Shown piece after piece: positions 1 through 35,062 of a stretch of DNA of 37,682 nt. The stretch is from a virus (taxonomy: Duplodnaviria; Heunggongvirae; Uroviricota; Caudoviricetes), in IMG/VR virus record IMGVR_UViG_2778261545_000003. One strand, 5' to 3'. Positions within the stretch are counted from its first letter, which is position 1; each line of letters opens with the position of its first letter. The position numbers and the translations under genes were made by a program. The notes beneath the pieces were generated by a model, which saw only the letters and a program-made list of their open reading frames with translations, was not told the DNA's origin and ran no database searches.

Positions 1-1053
1 TTACGGGGTAATGCCAACCTCTGCCGCCACTTTGTCGCCACTTGGCAGCGTTGCCAGAGGATTGAAACGGAGCGCCGTTTCCAGATGATCCGGTGCCAGA
101 TGTGCGTAACGCATAGTCATTTTTATGTCGTGATGTCCGAGGATTTTTTGCAAAGCAAGGATATTTCCACCCGACATCATGAAATGCGCCGCAAACGTAT
201 GGCGCAGAACGTGTGTCAGTTGACCGCGAGGGAGCACGATAGACGTTTTTCCCATCACAGATAAAAATTGAAAATAGCAGTCTGTGAAGAAATTGAACCC
301 ATCAAGCGCCATGATCTCTTCGTAAAGTTCTTTACTGATAGGGATGCTTCTGTTTTTCTTCCCCTTCGTTCTTACAAAGGTAATTCGGTATTTGGTCACC
401 TGTGAGCGGGTAAGATTTACAGCTTCACGCCAGCGTGCGCCTGTGCTTAAGCATATCTTAACTACCAGTGCCAGAATTGGGTCCTGACGTTTGCAATCAG
501 CCAGTAATTCAACAATCTGCTCATGGGTAAGCCATGCCATCTCTTTTTCTGCGATGGTGAATTTTCGCATGTTCTCCAGTGGGTTCGGATACGACCATTC
601 GCCCAGGCGGGATAGTTCGCTAAAAACACTACTAAGATAGCTTTGCTCCAGGTTAATGGTGACCGGGCTTGCTCCTTTCTTCCATTTTTCGCTGAAGTAG
701 ATCTCTCCTGTCAGGCGTTTATCTCGATAGTGGGCAAACATTTTAGAGGTGAGATCGGTTGCAATGGGATTTCCCAGGGCGTCAACCATCAACAGCAATT
801 TGTCATAGACATGCTGCCCAGCTGTCAGAGATTTACCATGTAGTTTGAACCATAGTTCAACCACGTCTTTCAGTGTTCGACGATCCACTGATTCACCCAG
901 CCAGGGTTTTGCTTCGGTTTCTTCCATCGTGTGACGCTCAAAAGCCAGAGCTTCGCCTTTGGTGGCGAATTGTTTACGCACACGACGTCCACTACGTCCG
1001 GCAGGGTAACATTCGCAAAGCCATTTTCCTGTGGTGAGTTTTCGTACTGCCAT
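1..1053 (-). CDS. int: Tyrosine integrase (P2/186 family)
   Basis: 350-aa ORF with tyrosine-recombinase C-terminal signature (..HVLRHTFAAH..GHHDIKMTMRYAHL..); located at prophage end, downstream of repressor on the same strand. Confidence 0.9.
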   Translation of the reverse strand: MAVRKLTTGKWLCECYPAGRSGRRVRKQFATKGEALAFERHTMEETEAKPWLGESVDRRTLKDVVELWFKLHGKSLTAGQHVYDKLLLMVDALGNPIATDLTSKMFAHYRDKRLTGEIYFSEKWKKGASPVTINLEQSYLSSVFSELSRLGEWSYPNPLENMRKFTIAEKEMAWLTHEQIVELLADCKRQDPILALVVKICLSTGARWREAVNLTRSQVTKYRITFVRTKGKKNRSIPISKELYEEIMALDGFNFFTDCYFQFLSVMGKTSIVLPRGQLTHVLRHTFAAHFMMSGGNILALQKILGHHDIKMTMRYAHLAPDHLETALRFNPLATLPSGDKVAAEVGITP

Positions 1054-1139: not shown

Positions 1140-2129
1140 TCACTCCTGTGCTTTTTCAGCGGTACTTGGCTTTAGTTTTTCTTTGGTTGAATCCCATAAA
1201 GATTGGATTCCCGGAGGGAGTTCTGTTTTGTCAGAAAATGCAGAGTTACCAGACATATTCCAGTCTTTAAAGACTAACACAGCATCTTCTTTTGTTGACG
1301 TGGAACCATAAATTTGCAGGAATACTTGCCCAAACATTAGTGCATGTCTTCTATCTTTTCTCAAAATTGATTCATGGGTATATTTTTTAGAGTTGCCAAG
1401 GCAAATATATGCTAGCCAAGAAAGAATGGAAATACCAATTAAACCACGTGTGAAAAAATAAAATAGCTCAAAGCCTTTAACATTGTTGAAGTCAATTGTG
1501 GCGTAGAGTGTATAAAATGATGCACATACAGCAAGTAGCCCAAAAATGCAGCCAGTAAAAGCCCATACTTGCGACATTTTAATGAAATATAAGTCATCTG
1601 AACTTAGTTCACTTTTAACGCTATCGACATATCCTGGTATTTTCTCATCAATCCTTTCTTGTTGTACTCGGCTTTGTAATTCGCTGTTAGATGCTTCAAG
1701 TTGCTTTATTCTAGATACGGCTTGCTCAATAATTGCTTCTTTTTCAGAATTTAGTTTTTCTAAATTCTCATTCCGAAGATGTAACGTAGCTTTGGACTCT
1801 TCAGCCTCCAATAAACGTTTGGTATATGATCGCATTATCTCTCGAAGATGTTTTTGTTCTTTTATTAATTCATCTATCTTATTGTTTTCATTAATAAAAA
1901 TATCTCCAGCTTTATCGCTGTAGTTCATTTTTTCTTGCTGGGCTAATTTCCAGTAGTATTCTCTGAATTTATCAAGTTCACCTTTTTTTAATAAGTCGAC
2001 TAAGTAGGCGCGTTCATTTTCATTAAATTTATGTAGATTTTCATTTAAAATATTATAAAGATCTTTCCATTCGCAATTAACTTTTTCAACATAATCGTTG
2101 TTTTCATTTTTTTTATTTTCAGAATTCAT
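1140..2129 (-). CDS. Cargo protein, N-terminal coiled coil plus two predicted transmembrane helices (candidate superinfection-exclusion/abortive-infection effector)
   Basis: ORF in the track is 1140..2207; the internal ATG at 2129 has an AAGGA Shine-Dalgarno and avoids overlap with cI. Product about 329 aa; N-terminal 200 aa rich in E/K/L/N heptad-like sequence, then hydrophobic stretches (VWAFTGCIFGLLAVCASFYTLYA and LFYFFTRGLIGISILSWLAYICLG). AT-rich relative to neighbours. Confidence 0.6.
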   Translation of the reverse strand: MNSENKKNENNDYVEKVNCEWKDLYNILNENLHKFNENERAYLVDLLKKGELDKFREYYWKLAQQEKMNYSDKAGDIFINENNKIDELIKEQKHLREIMRSYTKRLLEAEESKATLHLRNENLEKLNSEKEAIIEQAVSRIKQLEASNSELQSRVQQERIDEKIPGYVDSVKSELSSDDLYFIKMSQVWAFTGCIFGLLAVCASFYTLYATIDFNNVKGFELFYFFTRGLIGISILSWLAYICLGNSKKYTHESILRKDRRHALMFGQVFLQIYGSTSTKEDAVLVFKDWNMSGNSAFSDKTELPPGIQSLWDSTKEKLKPSTAEKAQE

Positions 2130-2139
2130 GTATGTTCCT

Positions 2140-3078
2140 TTAAATTTCCTTTGAAAAAACGCAACAACATTTTGCGATGGTTGTAATGTCTTCAAGCTTA
2201 CAAACAAAATCAGTTGTATCTGATGTGATTTTTACTTTTCCAACTGGAATTCTTGTTAATTTTCTTAAACTTACTTTACCTTCAATCTCAATCAACCAAC
2301 TACCATCTGAAACATCATCATATTCTGTATCTGCAATAAAGGTTTTTCCTTCTGCGGTAACTCCAATAGGTTTTTTCAATCCGGAAGGTATAAGCGTCTT
2401 GTCAAATGCTAAGTAGCCTTCATCATGTAATTTACCGTCAATGATTGTTTGGTGTTTAAGTTGGGCTACAGAGCTGGAATTATCGATAAATTTGGGGCCA
2501 TTGCCGTTTGTGAGCCAGAGTAATGAAGTTCCTGTTTCAAGAGCGCATTGAATGATCCAATCGCTAGGAAACGTGTCTCGTAAGTACCTGTTTGCTACAG
2601 TGCTTTTTGAAACCTGCAAATGGTTTGCTAGGGCTTGTCGGGTGCTAAAGCCGTAGGCTGCGACTAAGCGATCAATTGCCGCCTTCCCTCCTTTATTAGG
2701 ATTTATGCTGGTCTCGATTGGGAACTTTTGGGCTATTGAGTTAGTTCTATCCAGGTCATCAGATTTGGTATGGGCTAAACGTTCATCATTTAATAAAACT
2801 GAGGATGATTCACAGCTGATTCCCGATGCCAACCAGTCGATAGATGCGCCGGTCTCTATACTGCAAATTATCACCCAGTCAGCAGGAAATGTGTCACGAG
2901 CATACCTGTTAGCCATCGTGCTTTGTGAGATACCCAGATGATTGCAAAATGCTTGCCGCGAAGTAAAACCATACGCAGCAAGTATACGCTCAATTACTTT
3001 CTGTCCCCCACGGTTTTGCATTATTGAAGTTTTTAGACTCTCGCTAATATGGCGAAATGTGTTTTTTTGAGTTGACAT
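2140..3078 (-). CDS. cI: 186-type CI-like immunity repressor with tandemly duplicated N-terminal DNA-binding domain
   Basis: 312-aa ORF divergent from apl/cII. Two about 60-aa repeats (VIERILAAYGFTSRQAFCNHLGISQSTMANRYARDTFPADWVIICSIETGASIDWL and AIDRLVAAYGFSTRQALANHLQVSKSTVANRYLRDTFPSDWIIQCALETGTSLLWL), about 60 percent identical, matching the phage CI-repressor N-terminal HTH pattern. Confidence 0.7.
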   Translation of the reverse strand: MSTQKNTFRHISESLKTSIMQNRGGQKVIERILAAYGFTSRQAFCNHLGISQSTMANRYARDTFPADWVIICSIETGASIDWLASGISCESSSVLLNDERLAHTKSDDLDRTNSIAQKFPIETSINPNKGGKAAIDRLVAAYGFSTRQALANHLQVSKSTVANRYLRDTFPSDWIIQCALETGTSLLWLTNGNGPKFIDNSSSVAQLKHQTIIDGKLHDEGYLAFDKTLIPSGLKKPIGVTAEGKTFIADTEYDDVSDGSWLIEIEGKVSLRKLTRIPVGKVKITSDTTDFVCKLEDITTIAKCCCVFSKEI

Positions 3079-10176: not shown

Positions 10177-11091
10177 ATGCCATACCAATTGGTAGAGCTT
10201 AGCCCCGTAGCTAACGATCTTGAACAGTTAGGAACCAAAGAGAAGTTTTGGTTCTATTTCTCCGATGACACTGTAAATTTGCAGTTGTTTAAGTACTCTA
10301 GGCCAGGTACTGGCGAGCATTGGTCTGAAAAGTGTGCTGCTGAGTTATGTCATTTGCTTAACATTCCACATGCTAGCTATGATTTGGCGCGATACAATGG
10401 TCGATTCGGTGTGGTGACTCAGAATATCATTCCATCTGGTTTCCGGATGGTAATGGGAAATGAAGTGCTTCACAGTTCGACATTCGATTATCCTGGGCCT
10501 TTACAAGCCGGGGAAAAGCCGGTAAGGGTCAGAGAACACACTGTCACAAGGGTCTTGGGTTGTTTAGATAGGGAATCTATCAAGCCTCCTCCGAGTGTAT
10601 ATGATCTAACCGGGCTAAATGCAGCAGATGTATTTTGTGGATATTTGATGCTCGATGCACTTGTGAGTAATCAAGATCGCCACCATGAAAATTGGGCAAT
10701 CATGCTTAACAATGAAACTGGTGAGCAGTTTTTGTGTCCAACATACGATCATGCCGCTAGTTTAGGAAGGGAGATGTTAGATGATGAGCGTAACGAACGG
10801 CTTAATACTAAAGATAAAAATCGACAAATCCCATGTTTTGTAAGAAAAGCTCGCTCTGAGCTATTCAAAGCAAAAACTGATAAAAAGCCCTTGCTGACTG
10901 TTGAAGCATTTCAACATGCAGTTGAAGGGAGAGTTGCCGCTCGCGACCATTGGTTAGGTAAGTTGAGCGTTTTAACAGAAGATTCCATTACAGATGTGTT
11001 TAACCAAGTGCCTTCATCGTGTATATCCGACAGTGCACGTAGATTTGCAACGTTAATGGTAATGGAAAATCGCAGAAGGTTACTAGAATGA
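10177..11091 (+). CDS. HipA-like / PI3-4K-like small Ser/Thr kinase (cargo)
   Basis: 304 aa; catalytic-loop-like LVSNQDRHHENWAIM (DRH..N) and downstream YDHAASLG (metal-binding Asp), plus N-terminal LGTKEKFW; AGGGA RBS; stop overlaps the next gene by 4 nt. Confidence 0.55.
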   Translation: MPYQLVELSPVANDLEQLGTKEKFWFYFSDDTVNLQLFKYSRPGTGEHWSEKCAAELCHLLNIPHASYDLARYNGRFGVVTQNIIPSGFRMVMGNEVLHSSTFDYPGPLQAGEKPVRVREHTVTRVLGCLDRESIKPPPSVYDLTGLNAADVFCGYLMLDALVSNQDRHHENWAIMLNNETGEQFLCPTYDHAASLGREMLDDERNERLNTKDKNRQIPCFVRKARSELFKAKTDKKPLLTVEAFQHAVEGRVAARDHWLGKLSVLTEDSITDVFNQVPSSCISDSARRFATLMVMENRRRLLE

Positions 11092-11828
11092 CTAATACAA
11101 ACTCCGTTTACGTCGCATGGCAGGCACCAGATACCAGAGACTGGCATGTTGTTGGTAACTTGCAAGAGCGCAAATCGGGGTATGTTTTCAGGTATACCAA
11201 AGGTGCTCTTAAATCTTCTAAATTTACAAAGTTTAGCGGCATGAGTGATGTTCGTGAAACTTATGTATCGGAAGAATTGTTTCCTCTTTTTAAAAATCGC
11301 CTTTTATCACCGAGACGTCCAGAGTATCCGAGTTTCATTAAATGGCTTGGATTTGAAGAAGATAAGGTAAATCCTATCGATATTCTTGCTCGCTCGGGAG
11401 GCTTACGAAGCACTGATCAGCTGCAGATTTTCAAAAAAATTGATTTTGATTCTGATGGTAACTTTGAGCATTTTTTCTTCTTACATGGACTTGGTTACTT
11501 GAATAGCTTAGCTAATGCTCGTGTATCTGAATTGAAACCGGGGCAAATTTTGCGTCTTTGCTTGGATCTTCAAAATGAATACGATGGGGATGCTGTTGTC
11601 GTTCGTGCAGATAAACCAGCTGAAATCGTTGGTTACTGCCCTAGGTATTTAAGTAATGACATCAAGAAGATGTTATTGGATGATCCAAAATCAATCACTT
11701 TAACGGTCGAAAAGATTAGCGATGATGCTCCTCATAACTATCGGTTATTATGTAAATTATCAGGGGTACTAAGCCAAGCCTGTCAATCGACGCTGATTCC
11801 TCAAGATGAGTTTGAACCTATTGAGTAA
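11088..11828 (+). CDS. Protein with C-terminal HIRAN-like domain (cargo, partner of the kinase)
   Basis: 246 aa; C-terminal LQNEYDGDAVVVRADKPAEIVGYCPRYLSNDIKKMLLD fits the HIRAN pattern (N.YD.nAi.V...........lGY.PR..........L); translationally coupled to the upstream kinase gene. Confidence 0.5.
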   Translation: MTNTNSVYVAWQAPDTRDWHVVGNLQERKSGYVFRYTKGALKSSKFTKFSGMSDVRETYVSEELFPLFKNRLLSPRRPEYPSFIKWLGFEEDKVNPIDILARSGGLRSTDQLQIFKKIDFDSDGNFEHFFFLHGLGYLNSLANARVSELKPGQILRLCLDLQNEYDGDAVVVRADKPAEIVGYCPRYLSNDIKKMLLDDPKSITLTVEKISDDAPHNYRLLCKLSGVLSQACQSTLIPQDEFEPIE

Positions 11829-19783: not shown

Positions 19784-20177
19784 AGCGGTGCCTTATGTCC
19801 GCAATAACCCGGACAAACTGCATCTGTTTGTGGATAACGGTTCGCTGGTTGCCACGGGGGCCAGCTCCATGTCATGGGAGTACCGCTATACCCTGAACGT
19901 GGTGATAGAGGATTTCAGCGGCGACCAGAATCTGCTGATGGCCCCGGTTTTACTGTGGCTTCGGGATAACCAGCCCGATGCCATCAATAACCCGGCGTTA
20001 CGGGAAAAGCTATTCACCTTTGAGGTGGATATTTTGCGCAACGATGTCTGTGATATCAGCCTTAACCTGCAACTGACGGAACGTGTGCTGGTCAGTACTG
20101 ACGGCAGTGTGTCGAGCGTTGAAGCTGTAGCAGAACCCGATGAACCTGAAGAAATGTGGACGGTGAAACGTGGCTGA
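19745..20177 (+). CDS. R: Tail completion protein R
   Basis: P2 gpR-like ORF; likely GTG start at 19745 with AGGAG RBS (the track ORF starts at 19725). Confidence 0.7.
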
Positions 20178-20616
20178 ACTGCAGAAGGTGGACGACTGGC
20201 TGAGTGCCTTGCTGGCGAATCTGGAACCAGCCACGAGAAGCCGCATGATGCGCCAACTGGCGCAGGAACTGCGCCGGACACAGCAGCAGAATATCAGGAT
20301 GCAGCGCAATCCAGATGGCAGCAGTTATGAACCGCGCAGGGTAACAGCACGCAGCAAAAAAGGCCGCATCAAACGTCAGATGTTTGCAAAGCTGCGCACC
20401 ACAAAATACCTGAAAACTGCCGCCAGCGCCGACTCTGCCAGCGTACAGTTTGAAGGCAAGGTGCAGCGTATTGCCCGTGTTCACCATTACGGCCTGCGCG
20501 ATCGTGTCAGTCGCAAAGGACCGGAAGTGCGTTATGCAGAGCGGCGGTTGCTTGGTATCAATAACAAGATGCAGTCTGTCATTGGAGATATATTGCATCA
20601 GTGGCTGTTTAAATGA
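20170..20616 (+). CDS. S: Tail completion / virion morphogenesis protein S
   Basis: 148-aa ORF, P2 gpS position. Confidence 0.8.
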   Translation: MAELQKVDDWLSALLANLEPATRSRMMRQLAQELRRTQQQNIRMQRNPDGSSYEPRRVTARSKKGRIKRQMFAKLRTTKYLKTAASADSASVQFEGKVQRIARVHHYGLRDRVSRKGPEVRYAERRLLGINNKMQSVIGDILHQWLFK

Positions 20617-20660
20617 GTCAACTAATTTGGTTAATCTAATTTATTCGTTGTTAACGAATA

Positions 20661-21476
20661 TCATATTTTTAATTTTTTATGGATATGCTCCATCCCTAAA
20701 TTAGATATCTCTTTTTTTAGCTGGGTTTCACTTGCAGTTATCCAGTTTTTTCCACAGTTTGGTAGAAGCATCTCGCTACTTGACGGATTGATAAGTTTTA
20801 CTTTTTCATTCTTTATAATTTTGTTTTTCAAATAACTTTTACTTATTAAGGCTGATTTTTCAGTTATAACGAGATAAAAAAATATGCTTCCAAAAAATAT
20901 ACCTTTTAAAATAATACCGCTGCGTAACAGAACAGGGTCATTTTTGGTTATTCTCATTTTAAAGGGAGAGCAAAGGTTGTCTTCACTTGTAGGTATATTA
21001 AGTTCACTTTTTTGCTCGTCAGTAAGTTTAAGAGGCATGAGCAGTCCAGCGAAGAGCATGACATCTTTTTCTGAAGGCAAAGGTTCTCCGCGGAGAATAT
21101 AATCTTTATATGCGCCAAAAATATGTGTCGATGGATCATTGACCGCGCTTGCCGAGTTGTAAGAAATTTTCATTAACCAGCGTAGCAATAAATGATAATC
21201 ATAAGTTATAGTCGTTTGTGTCTTTAGATAAAGTTGGGTTAAGAAACCGTTTCTGGCTAAAAACTGACTTCCATAATCATCTAAAAAACTTAATGCTCCA
21301 CCATTGCATGTTTTACAAACATCGGCAATTGTTGCCTCACCACCAATTATATCATTTGCTCTCTCGTTCCAGCCTATAAAACGATCTCCAGATTCTTTTT
21401 GATATTTATATATAAATTTAGGGATAATATGTTCTCTTTCTATTATTCCATCTTGCTCGCAATATCTGCAGTGCAT
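20661..21476 (-). CDS. Cargo protein with N-terminal HNH-like (His-Me finger) nuclease motif
   Basis: 271 aa; CRYCEQ...EHIIPKF...GG...CKTCNGG arrangement typical of HNH endonucleases; strongly AT-rich, opposite strand, inserted between S and the V late promoter. Confidence 0.55.
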   Translation of the reverse strand: MHCRYCEQDGIIEREHIIPKFIYKYQKESGDRFIGWNERANDIIGGEATIADVCKTCNGGALSFLDDYGSQFLARNGFLTQLYLKTQTTITYDYHLLLRWLMKISYNSASAVNDPSTHIFGAYKDYILRGEPLPSEKDVMLFAGLLMPLKLTDEQKSELNIPTSEDNLCSPFKMRITKNDPVLLRSGIILKGIFFGSIFFYLVITEKSALISKSYLKNKIIKNEKVKLINPSSSEMLLPNCGKNWITASETQLKKEISNLGMEHIHKKLKI

Positions 21477-21520
21477 TATTTTCTCCGTTGATTTTATTTA
21501 TCGTTAATTTTCAGTTGTAA

Positions 21521-21538
21521 TGTGCCATCCATCATACA
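21521..21538 (+). promoter_or_regulatory. P2-type late promoter activator site (TGT-N12-ACA) upstream of V
   Basis: TGTgccatccatcatACA, 46 bp upstream of the V start codon. Confidence 0.55.
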
Positions 21539-21583
21539 ACGGTATGTTATCGACTGAAATTCCATTTAGTTTAACATTTTTAC

Positions 21584-22162
21584 ATGAACGCACAATTAAC
21601 CGAAATCATGCGCCTTATCACCAACCTGATCCGCACTGGGGTAGTCACCGAAGTGGACAGGGAAAACTGGCTTTGCCGGGTGAAAACGGGCGAGCTTGAA
21701 ACTAACTGGATCAGTTGGCTGACGCTGCGTGCAGGAAATGCCCGGACATGGTGGCGACCATCGGAAGGTGAGCAGGTGGTGCTGCTGAGTCTGGGCGGTA
21801 ATCTGGAAACCGCGTTTGCCCTGCCTGCGGTCTACTCAAACCAGTTTCCGCCACCTTCAGGCTCTGAGGACGGCAACGTGACGGAATACCCGGACGGCGG
21901 CTGGTTTGAATACGAACCCGCCACCGGGCGCTGGTATGTCAGGGGCATCAAATCAATGGTCATTGAGGCCGCTGACAATATCACCCTGAAAACCAGTGTG
22001 TTTGTGCTGGAGGCTGACCGCACGCGTATTAACAGCGAAGTGGTGATTAATGGTGGCGTTACCCAGGGCGGCGGAGCGATGAGCTCTAACGGGATTGTGG
22101 TTGATGCGCATCAGCATACTGGCGTCCTGAAAGGCGGCGATACAACCGGAGGCCCGGTATGA
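21584..22162 (+). CDS. V: Baseplate spike protein V
   Basis: 192-aa ORF, P2 gpV-like. Confidence 0.85.
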   Translation: MNAQLTEIMRLITNLIRTGVVTEVDRENWLCRVKTGELETNWISWLTLRAGNARTWWRPSEGEQVVLLSLGGNLETAFALPAVYSNQFPPPSGSEDGNVTEYPDGGWFEYEPATGRWYVRGIKSMVIEAADNITLKTSVFVLEADRTRINSEVVINGGVTQGGGAMSSNGIVVDAHQHTGVLKGGDTTGGPV

Positions 22163-34827: not shown

Positions 34828-34912
34828 CGCTGCCGCCATTTTGTCGCCATCGTTAAAAAACAGTGCTTCTAACATCATGATTTTAAACAGCTTAAATTTC
34901 AGGCAACAAAAA

Positions 34913-34950
34913 ACCCATCAACCTTGAACCGAAATGGCGGGGTTGATGGG
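34913..34950 (-). terminator. Stem-loop with T-tract on minus strand, probably the ybjL terminator (host side of the junction)
   Basis: CCCATCAACC-N18-GGTTGATGGG with a T-run (TTTTTTGTTG) following on the minus strand, about 110 nt downstream of the ybjL stop. Confidence 0.45.
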
Positions 34951-35062
34951 CTCCACAAAATGGGGACATCAAAGAAAAGCAGTGGCATTAATTAAGACTG
35001 ATGCCCTGCGGAAAAGTTCTGCGGTTGTGCAAAAAAATTTCATTTTCAGGGCAACTTCAGTT

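What the first reader, a model, noticed from the sequence alone, without database searches (positions are those of the whole stretch)
20661..21476. Opposite-strand HNH-like gene inserted between tail-completion gene S and baseplate gene V
P2 has S directly followed by the V late promoter. Here an 816-bp strongly AT-rich gene on the opposite strand is inserted, leaving the V promoter dyad (21521..21538) intact just beyond it. The protein has an N-terminal HNH/His-Me finger arrangement (CxxC...EHIIP...GG...CxxCN) and a roughly 190-aa C-terminal domain of unknown function. This looks like a moron encoding a nuclease-based defence or Abi-like protein.
Basis: partly seen in the sequence, partly recalled or inferred. 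Interest (0 to 1): 0.65.

Follow-up and report, generated by a model that had tools for sequence, protein, structure and literature searches.

The report
Orphan HNH-like cargo gene in P2 prophage
A P2-like E. coli prophage carries, at a known but little-studied swap site between two tail genes, a real and well-conserved gene for an uncharacterised HNH-type nuclease that is probably a one-gene anti-phage defence, though no experiment has shown this.

Summary
A 271-codon ORF lies at 20661..21476 (-), with 34% GC against ~57% in the flanks, between tail genes S and V of a complete P2-like prophage. It is under purifying selection (dN/dS 0.10).

P2 itself has a nonessential opposite-strand gene (orf30) at this site, and the literature names the orf30 locus as a known region of horizontally acquired genes. 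In a sample of 50 related E. coli prophages, 22 sites were empty. The other 28 held varied single-gene cargo, including TIR, FRG, DUF2971 and PDC-S59 proteins that match PADLOC defence-candidate families. The V promoter was not "left intact". The swapped module (20544..21583) brings its own S tail and its own promoter.

The protein belongs to an uncatalogued family of 858 representatives. The N-terminal 110 residues are a divergent His-Me finger: CxxC, EH, CxxCN and D66 are invariant, and 40 of 52 members hit Pfam HNH_5, though the ten scored individually and the window protein fall below its cut-off. The C-terminal domain is variable and has no PDB fold match.

Relatives sit in other P2 hotspots, in Tn7 cargo and in R-M or defence islands, always as solitary genes. 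A single-gene defence nuclease is the best reading (confidence ~0.55). It is a new member of a known kind.

The parts
20170..20616 (+). Gene S (tail completion / virion morphogenesis protein). Its last ~24 codons (20544..20616, GC 0.40) belong to the swapped module.
   Evidence: ORF. The EA7 copy is annotated 'phage virion morphogenesis protein'. Identity to phage 500465-1 is 95% up to 20543, then falls to ~0.5. S tails differ by cargo type.
20544..21583 (.). Exchangeable AT-rich module: S tail, cargo gene and V late promoter. It replaces 141 bp in relatives with an empty site.
   Evidence: BLAST breakpoints at 20543 and 21584 against L001. The same collinear module plus S tail (...HQWLFK) occurs in L006 at 80% identity.
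20642..20660 (+). Weak AT-rich hairpin followed by a T-run. Possibly the terminator of the O-operon transcript after S (tentative).
   Evidence: Fold: 8-bp stem, but the z-score for the 81-nt region is only -1.1. The consensus terminator scan did not call it. P2 has a putative terminator at the equivalent place.
20661..21476 (-). Cargo gene: 271-aa orphan HNH-like protein (RefSeq WP_001748178.1, 'hypothetical protein').
   Evidence: dN/dS 0.10. AF2 model pLDDT 91.8, pTM 0.90.
21144..21476 (-). Conserved N-terminal module, residues 1-111. Residues 1-75 are the His-Me finger core: C3, C6, E15, H16, D52, C54, C57, N58, D66. Residues 92-110 are an invariant basic helix: R99, K103, N107, R110.
   Evidence: Invariant columns in 52 diverse members. 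HNH_5 hits. Predicted strand 12-16 ends in H16, and helices 55-75 follow C54xxC57.
20664..21143 (-). Variable C-terminal alpha/beta domain, residues 112-271, basic (pI 9.3), with no recognisable fold relative.
21483..21486 (-). Shine-Dalgarno GGAG, 6 nt upstream of the cargo gene's ATG.
   Evidence: Read from the sequence.
21522..21539 (+). TGT-N12-ACA dyad of the Ogr-type late promoter for the V operon. The sequence is specific to this module.
   Evidence: Sequence. A dyad starts 63-65 nt upstream of the V ATG in the window and in all six E. coli-lineage comparator loci examined (one empty site, five other cargo types), with different spacer sequences. The geometry matches P2's annotated pV activator site and transcription start.
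21584..22162 (+). Gene V (baseplate assembly protein). Homology to relatives resumes exactly at its start codon.

Best explanation
The gene is single-gene cargo in the S-V ('orf30') exchange site of a P2-like prophage. It encodes a stand-alone His-Me-finger (HNH-type) metal-dependent nuclease. The conserved N-terminal 110 residues are the catalytic and nucleic-acid-binding module. The fast-evolving C-terminal domain most likely decides when or on what the nuclease acts.

I infer that the lysogen expresses it from the strand opposite the late operons, as P2 does for old, tin and fun(Z). I infer that it protects the lysogen, and so the prophage, against other phages by cutting nucleic acid. It could do this directly on a feature of foreign DNA, in the manner of a type IV restriction enzyme. 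Or it could act after the C-terminal domain senses an infection cue, in the manner of an abortive-infection system.

Shown: the gene is real and under selection; the site is an exchange hotspot; the catalytic-type residues are invariant; family members recur in defence and mobile-element hotspots as solitary genes.

Inferred: nuclease activity, expression during lysogeny, the anti-phage role, the substrate and the trigger.
For: The gene is real and selected. dN/dS is 0.10 with dS 0.63. Ten E. coli genomes carry it at >=99% identity. The family has 858 representatives at 50% identity, 593 of them at E<=1e-10.

It has a His-Me finger. E15, H16, D52, C54, C57, N58 and D66 are invariant, and C3 and C6 nearly so, across 52 members at 23-50% identity to the window protein. 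HNH_5 is hit by 40 of 52 members, best E 2.6e-7. The predicted strand-His ... CxxC-helix topology comes from a model with pLDDT 91.8.

The site is a hotspot. P2 has orf30 there. The literature names the orf30 locus as one of three acquisition regions (PMC3091744). In a sample of 50 sites, 22 were empty and 28 held >=10 cargo types. Four of six alternative cargos match PADLOC candidate defence families, e.g. PDC-S59 at 1.7e-197, PDC-S15 at 8.5e-32 and PDC-S31 at 1.9e-24.

Family contexts point to defence. Homologs at 87% and 46% identity sit at the same S-V site. Another lies in the canonical gpA-gpQ hotspot of an Aeromonas P2/HP1-like prophage. Another is the first cargo gene of a Tn7-like element, beside GmrSD, Eco57I-type, HicAB and HEPN genes. 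Another lies in a chromosomal island with AAA_13, Cap4-nuclease, AAA_15/21 and AbiTii genes. Another lies immediately downstream of a type I R-M operon near integrases.

The gene is always solitary, with no conserved partner. A conserved effector joined to a variable accessory domain is the layout of known single-protein sensor-effector systems; that comparison is from my own knowledge.
Against: There is no experimental evidence of any kind, and the protein does not appear in the searched literature. PADLOC v2 does not match the window protein; among 52 family members the only hit is one member's marginal match to PDC-M01B at E=0.0027. The window protein's own HNH_5 score is below Pfam's cut-off, as are the scores of the 10 relatives tested individually, at 23.9-26.8 bits against 27.5. 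No solved structure matches, so the C-terminal domain gives no functional clue. I found no sigma-70-like promoter upstream, so expression in the lysogen is assumed. Some family members sit in neutral contexts, among housekeeping or hypothetical genes. How a lone nuclease avoids damaging the host is unexplained. PDC families are candidates, not validated systems.
Confidence: 0.55

Rival explanations
1. It is a free-standing HNH homing endonuclease, like the T4 Mob or Seg genes. It cuts P2-like genomes that lack it near the S-V junction and spreads by repair-mediated gene conversion. The co-converted flanks would explain the module-specific S tail and promoter.
For: It is an HNH-type protein inserted between two conserved phage genes. 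The flanking sequence, including the S tail and the V promoter, diverges along with the gene. HNH_5 shares a His-Me group with the T4 Mob endonucleases (PMC5714182).
Against: Non-nuclease cargos at the same site (TIR, FRG, DUF2971, DUF6216) show the same module architecture, with their own S tail and promoter. So that architecture does not need a nuclease. Family members occur at unrelated loci: gpA-gpQ, Tn7 cargo, chromosomal islands, and next to R-M. Pfam finds no NUMOD, IENR, AP2 or HNH_3 DNA-binding module. Only 10 of 1041 genomes with this phage lineage carry it. It is neither an intron nor an intein.
Confidence: 0.07
2. It is a type IV (modification-dependent) restriction endonuclease, functionally like the prophage-e14 enzyme McrA. 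The C-terminal domain would read a modified base and the HNH module would cut. This is a specific sub-case of the best explanation.
For: It is a solitary gene with no methyltransferase or antitoxin partner, which is what a type IV enzyme needs in order to be harmless to its host. Its size and prophage origin are similar to McrA (own knowledge). One relative is co-resident with a GmrSD-type gene and another abuts a type I R-M operon. The C-terminal domain is variable and basic.
Confidence: 0.2
3. It has a phage-beneficial function unrelated to defence: a lysogenic-conversion factor, an anti-defence factor, or a nuclease serving the prophage's own life cycle, such as host DNA degradation or processing during lytic growth.
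For: P2 hotspots also carry non-defence cargo (Rousset 2022, PMC9122126). P2 Orf30 at the same site has no known function. The gene shares a 107-bp intergenic region with the Ogr-dependent V promoter, so late-phase co-regulation cannot be excluded.
Against: The family is widespread outside phages, in Tn7 cargo and chromosomal islands beside R-M and Abi genes. About 99% of close phage relatives lack the gene, and 22 of the 50 sampled sites are empty. It is on the strand opposite all the late genes.
Confidence: 0.13
4. It is a catalytically dead zinc-ribbon, HNH-like nucleic-acid-binding protein, for example a regulator, or a selfish remnant with no current function.
For: HNH_5 scores are sub-threshold, and an insertion of ~25 residues splits the motif. 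Nuclease activity is untested.
Against: The predicted general-base His, with its preceding Glu, and the N58 and D66 positions are invariant across hundreds of diverged sequences, not only the four cysteines. Purifying selection is strong in both halves.
Confidence: 0.05

Closest known systems
P2 Orf30 and the 'orf30 region' of P2-like phages (NC_001895 P2p15; Nilsson & Haggard-Ljungquist, as cited in PMC3091744)
   Same: Same genomic slot between S and V. Same opposite-strand orientation, similar size (261 aa against 271 aa), AT-rich, nonessential, horizontally acquired.
   Different: No detectable sequence similarity (BLASTP E=3.7). Orf30 has no HNH motif and no PADLOC hit. The two are different genes occupying the same site.
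Pfam HNH_5 (PF14279) / His-Me finger superfamily (clan containing McrA, Cas9 HNH and T4 Mob; PMC5714182)
   Same: CxxC ... EH..P ... CxxCN ... D pattern. Strand-His then helix topology. 40 of 52 family members hit the profile.
   Different: The window protein and the 10 relatives tested individually score below the curated cut-off. A ~25-residue insertion (helix 20-28 plus short strands) splits the motif. A conserved basic helix (R99, K103, N107, R110) and a ~160-aa domain of unknown fold follow it.
McrA (E. coli e14 prophage type IV HNH restriction enzyme)
   Same: A prophage-borne, solitary HNH nuclease of ~270-280 aa joined to a second domain, with no methylase partner (own knowledge for McrA; for this gene).
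   Different: The domain order is reversed. There is no sequence or fold match to any solved structure, McrA-type domains included. Dependence on modification is untested.
PADLOC single-gene 'phage defence candidates' found at the same site (PDC-S59, PDC-S15/FRG, PDC-S31/DUF2971, TIR/PDC-S66)
   Same: Alternative occupants of the identical S-V slot in sister prophages. They are single genes, AT-rich and mostly on the opposite strand, each with its own S tail and V promoter.
   Different: They are unrelated protein families. The HNH-like family is not in PADLOC v2 at all.
HNH effectors of multi-gene defence systems (Septu PtuB, Zorya type II ZorE)
   Same: An HNH-type nuclease used in anti-phage immunity (own knowledge).
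   Different: Those act with ATPase or motor partners. This gene never has a conserved neighbour, and no PADLOC model for those systems matches it.

Membership tests
His-Me finger / HNH (Pfam HNH_5, PF14279) | Profile match at or above Pfam's gathering score (27.5 bits) | tested here: inconclusive
   The window protein scores 20.3 bits, E 5.5e-4. Ten relatives score 23.9-26.8 bits, all just below the cut-off. 40 of 52 members hit at E<=0.01, best E 2.6e-7. No other Pfam family competes.
His-Me finger / HNH (Pfam HNH_5, PF14279) | Catalytic His at the end of the first strand, preceded by an acidic residue, with conserved polar or acidic metal ligands on the following helix | tested here: met
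   E15-H16 ends predicted strand 12-16. N58 and D66 lie in helices 55-59 and 61-75. E15, H16, N58 and D66 are invariant in 52 diverse members.
His-Me finger / HNH (Pfam HNH_5, PF14279) | Two CxxC pairs forming a structural zinc site | tested here: met
   C3xxC6 and C54xxC57. They are invariant in A6 and invariant or >=90% conserved in A4.
His-Me finger / HNH (Pfam HNH_5, PF14279) | Metal-dependent nuclease activity | not testable with these tools
   Needs biochemistry.
P2 'orf30-region' cargo (S-V exchange site) | Located between S and V, compositionally foreign, with alternative or absent cargo in close relatives | tested here: met
   literature.
P2 Orf30 protein family | Sequence homology to P2 Orf30 | tested here: not met
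   BLASTP E=3.7. tblastn against 50,697 phage records, P2 included, gave no match.
Known or candidate defence systems (PADLOC-DB v2.0.0) | Match to any of 5027 defence protein models | tested here: not met
   No hit for the protein at E<=10. Among 52 family members there is one marginal hit, at E=0.0027. Newer DefenseFinder models could not be run.
Free-standing / intron / intein HNH homing endonuclease | Embedded in an intron or intein, or carrying homing-type DNA-binding modules (NUMOD, IENR, AP2, HNH_3), and tied to one target site | tested here: not met
   S and V are separate intact genes. Pfam finds no such domains. The family occurs at many unrelated loci. Actual homing was not testable.
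Type IV restriction enzyme (McrA-like) | A nuclease joined to a recognisable modified-base reader domain, with modification-dependent cleavage | tested here: inconclusive
Nuclease toxin with cognate immunity or antitoxin (colicin E7/E9-like, toxin-antitoxin) | An adjacent small immunity or antitoxin gene conserved with the nuclease | tested here: not met
   The module has room for one gene only (20617..21583). No conserved neighbour appears across the 12 contexts examined.

The most novel reading that the evidence does not exclude
The family is a previously uncatalogued single-protein immune nuclease. Its C-terminal domain is a new sensor or specificity fold. The S-V junction is a substantial and overlooked defence hotspot of P2-like phages. 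There, each cargo travels as a self-contained cassette with its own gpS C-terminal tail and its own Ogr-dependent V promoter. That linkage hints at co-adaptation between the cargo and the flanking phage functions rather than mere hitch-hiking.
Probability: 0.35. Interest if true: 0.6.

Novelty: new member of a known kind. Interest (0 to 1): 0.45.

Why it matters
If it is confirmed, a widespread family would join the catalogue of one-gene anti-phage systems. The family has 858 representatives at 50% identity, runs from Proteobacteria to Firmicutes and Verrucomicrobiota, and is called 'hypothetical' everywhere. Its effector would be a compact HNH nuclease, and its accessory domain has no structural precedent.

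The finding would also point to the S-V ('orf30') slot as a productive place to mine. About half of the sampled E. coli P2-like prophages carry something there, mostly unvalidated candidates. The two functional and mining studies I read looked only at the gpA-gpQ and Z/fun hotspots.

The gene is short and self-contained, so it is easy to test.

Tried and rejected
1. Homology to P2 Orf30: none.

2. Direct hits in PADLOC, NCBIfam or PHROGs. PADLOC and NCBIfam gave none; PHROGs gave only weak hits of unknown function.

3. tblastn against 50,697 phage records: no match. The gene is absent from sequenced isolated phages.

4. PDB by sequence, with the full-length profile and the N-terminal profile: nothing, only noise at E>0.5.

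6. Extra domains in the ~430-aa and N-terminally extended subfamilies: no Pfam domain that would hint at function.

7. A sigma-70 promoter or an intrinsic terminator for the gene: no convincing site. The hairpin after S is weak.

8. Structured RNA in the module: none in Rfam.

9. Literature look-ups for the RefSeq accession, for HNH_5 in defence and for the PDC families: nothing specific.

10. Considered and rejected. An HNH packaging cofactor of the terminase: wrong location, wrong strand, and present in only ~1% of relatives. A colicin-like toxin: no immunity gene and no translocation domains. A transmembrane protein: the hydrophobic stretch 192-205 is predicted as two buried strands at high confidence.

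Full report
**1. The observation**

The window is a complete P2-like (Peduoviridae) prophage in an E. coli chromosome. It runs from the integrase at 1..1053 to the ogr end, with the host genes rybB and ybjL just beyond.

An ATG-initiated ORF of 271 codons lies at 20661..21476 on the minus strand. A GGAG ribosome-binding site sits 6 nt upstream. GC falls from 0.55-0.60 in the flanks to 0.30-0.37 across the gene. The gene itself is 0.337 GC, with GC3 of 0.28.

The gene sits between S (20170..20616) and V (21584..22162).

The gene is not a chance ORF. It has homologs down to about 25% identity. Against an 87%-identical copy from another P2-like phage, dN/dS is 0.10 at dS 0.63. Both halves are constrained: 0.14 for the N-terminal part and 0.08 for the C-terminal part.

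**2.

That is incorrect. The P2 reference record carries Orf30, a nonessential 786-bp gene on the opposite strand, between S and the pV activator site.

A paper on P2-like Burkholderia phages, citing Nilsson and Haggard-Ljungquist, names three regions where P2-like phages commonly hold horizontally acquired genes: the TO region, the Z region and orf30 (PMC3091744). Phage R18C has yet another hypothetical ORF at this site (PMC6823313). Orf30 and the window protein are unrelated (BLASTP E=3.7).

I surveyed the site in 5,426 complete E. coli genomes, using the S and V flanks as the query. The lineage is present in 1,041 genomes, and ten of them carry this gene at >=99% identity.

In an evenly spread sample, 50 sites matched both flanks. 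Of these, 22 are empty (a span of ~1,200 bp). The other 28 hold single genes of at least ten kinds. Annotated examples are TIR-domain, FRG-domain, DUF2971, DUF6216 and several 'hypothetical' proteins.

Four of the six alternative cargos I scanned match PADLOC single-gene defence-candidate families: PDC-S59 at 1.7e-197, PDC-S15 at 8.5e-32, PDC-S31 at 1.9e-24, and the TIR protein weakly to PDC-S66 and SpbK.

So the slot is a genuine cargo hotspot enriched in defence-like genes. The two hotspot studies I read examined only gpA-gpQ and Z/fun (PMC9122126; PMC9519451). A 2026 survey mentions defence loci 'within the tail genes' without detail (PMC13586616).

**3. Anatomy of the module**

Homology to the empty-site phage 500465-1 runs at 95-97% up to 20543 and resumes exactly at the V start codon, 21584. 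The exchanged unit is therefore 20544..21583, which is 1,040 bp in place of 141 bp. It contains the last ~24 codons of S, the cargo gene and the whole S-V intergenic region.

The dyad TGT-N12-ACA, the Ogr-type late-promoter element, is at 21522..21539.

Each cargo type I examined has its own AT-rich V promoter, and four of the five alternative cargo types also have their own S tail. Tails from different cargo types are only ~50-64% identical at the nucleotide level. All the promoters keep a dyad starting 63-65 nt upstream of the V ATG.

The 87%-identical homolog sits in a collinear module with the same S tail, ending ...HQWLFK. The promoter was therefore not 'left intact'. It travels with the cargo.

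Non-nuclease cargos have the same architecture, so the architecture does not imply homing.

Cargo GC is ~0.34 whether the host phage is 0.55 or 0.63 GC.

I found no convincing sigma-70 promoter for the gene and only a weak hairpin after S. No Rfam RNA lies in the module.

**4. The protein**

The word-indexed search found only 11 relatives. The exhaustive profile search found 858 representatives at 50% identity. Of these, 593 are at E<=1e-10. Most are 260-280 aa and match over the full length.

Every source name is 'hypothetical protein'. Hosts include Aeromonas, Pseudomonas, Brenneria, Paenibacillus and Verrucomicrobiota.

In 52 members at 23-50% identity to the window protein, ten positions are invariant: E15, H16, D52, C54, C57, N58, L62, D66, R99 and K103. 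C3, C6, P19, W100, N107 and R110 are nearly invariant. Conservation is concentrated in residues 1-111, and residues 112-271 vary freely across the family.

Pfam HNH_5 is the only family hit. The window protein scores 20.3 bits, and ten relatives score 23.9-26.8 bits, all under the 27.5-bit cut-off. Even so, 40 of 52 members hit it, with a best E of 2.6e-7. The match is split by an insertion of about 25 residues.

An AlphaFold2 model built from a 46-sequence alignment is confident (pLDDT 91.8, pTM 0.90). Strand 12-16 ends in H16, and helices 55-75 follow the second CxxC. This is the order expected of a beta-beta-alpha-metal finger. I could not inspect the model coordinates.

Nothing in PDB resembles the protein, by sequence or by fold. 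The only significant viral-library hit is an uncharacterised myovirus protein.

PADLOC and NCBIfam have no model for the protein or its family.

My conclusion is that this is a divergent His-Me-finger nuclease module fused to a domain of unknown fold. Membership of HNH_5 is supported at the level of family and motif, but not by the curated threshold.

**5. Context of relatives**

I examined twelve contexts.

- The same S-V slot in two other P2-like phages, plus the window itself.
- The canonical gpA-gpQ hotspot of an Aeromonas P2/HP1-like prophage that also carries DarT and Macro genes.
- The first cargo gene of a Tn7-like element, followed by GmrSD-type, Eco57I-type, HicAB and HEPN genes.
- A chromosomal island with AAA_13, Cap4-nuclease, AAA_15/21, AbiTii, NYN and caspase-like genes.
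- Immediately downstream of a type I R-M operon, near integrases.
- Next to a PDDEXK_4 gene.
- Next to a reverse transcriptase.
- An integrase-linked island in Brenneria.
- Two uninformative contexts.

No neighbour is conserved, so the unit is a single gene.

**6. Mechanism**

The best-supported reading is a stand-alone defence nuclease. The conserved N-terminal module would cut nucleic acid, with H16 as the general base, N58 and D66 with E15 and D52 around the metal, and a Cys4 zinc site. The invariant basic helix (R99, K103, N107, R110) probably contacts the substrate. The variable, basic C-terminal domain would set specificity or gate activity.

A lone nuclease can be harmless to its host in two ways. 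It may recognise something the host lacks, as a type IV restriction enzyme does. Or it may stay inactive until an infection cue arrives, as in abortive infection. I cannot tell these apart.

I put about 0.55 on defence overall, with type IV-like recognition as a sub-case at about 0.2. Nuclease activity, lysogenic expression, substrate and trigger are all inferred.

The rivals are homing endonuclease (0.07), a phage-beneficial non-defence function (0.13) and an inactive binder or remnant (0.05). The evidence for and against each is set out in the rival-explanations section.

**7. Novelty and verdict**

The locus is already known as a variable region. The idea of prophage-hotspot defence genes is well established. 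HNH nucleases are familiar defence effectors. What is new is the family itself, which is uncatalogued, unnamed and without any structural relative. The picture of the S-V slot is also new: a busy hotspot whose cassettes carry their own S tail and V promoter.

This is a good, easily testable candidate rather than a surprise. I rate it a new member of a known kind, with interest 0.45.

Noticed in passing
window 10177..11091 (+) and 11088..11828 (+): The canonical gpA-gpQ hotspot of this prophage carries a two-gene PADLOC candidate system, PDC-M03. PDC-M03A matches at E 2e-122 and has weak HipA_C kinase similarity. PDC-M03B matches at E 7e-93 and has a Pfam HIRAN domain at 1e-13. The prophage therefore has cargo in at least two hotspots.
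   Followed up: partly
window 1140..2207 (-): A second strongly AT-rich ORF (GC ~0.30-0.36, 355 aa) lies between the integrase and the cI-like repressor. This is the int-cI slot that iLund4u and the NAR 2026 survey describe as another P2 hotspot. It has no PADLOC hit, and Pfam gives only a weak, far sub-threshold coiled-coil-like match to Crescentin.
   Followed up: partly
S 3' ends: window 20544..20616; L015-L018 about 545..620: Most cargo types at the S-V site come with their own version of the last ~24 codons of gpS. The tails are only ~50-64% identical at the nucleotide level between cargo types, but they keep the pattern LLG.N......D.L..WL. PDC-S59 is the exception: it keeps the tail seen at empty sites. 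Whether this reflects recombination breakpoints alone or functional coupling is unexplained.
   Followed up: partly
L018 (E. coli strain 142); also hits H50-H52 (E. coli C, T7Express, B-LamR): Laboratory E. coli B and C lineages carry a DUF6216-family gene at the same S-V slot of their P2-like prophage remnant. It overlaps the S 3' end convergently and has no PADLOC hit.
   Followed up: no
hit H30, NZ_CP060065.1 1152890..1153852: One of the ten E. coli copies of the gene spans 963 bp instead of 965 bp and is annotated as two hypothetical proteins. It is probably a frameshifted, decaying copy.
   Followed up: no
window 34905..34983 (-): The host sRNA gene rybB (Rfam RF00110, 105 bits) lies in the host flank just beyond the prophage's ogr end, before ybjL. 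This places the prophage's attachment site in the rybB-ybjL region.
   Followed up: no
proteins P0088, P0092, P0101, P0109, P0122 (~425-440 aa); P0104, P0119 (360 aa): Two subfamilies of the HNH-like family carry extra regions with no significant Pfam domain. One has a C-terminal extension of ~170-200 aa beyond the matched region. The other has an N-terminal extension of ~95-108 aa. These fusions might hint at function if their structures were examined.
   Followed up: partly
L002 (E. coli EA7) 1460..2440 and 10412..11212: The EA7 prophage carries an identical copy of the HNH-like protein but differs elsewhere. It has an ISKpn26 insertion near the integrase and a TIR-domain gene in the gpA-gpQ hotspot where the window has PDC-M03. 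The hotspots therefore reassort independently.
   Followed up: no
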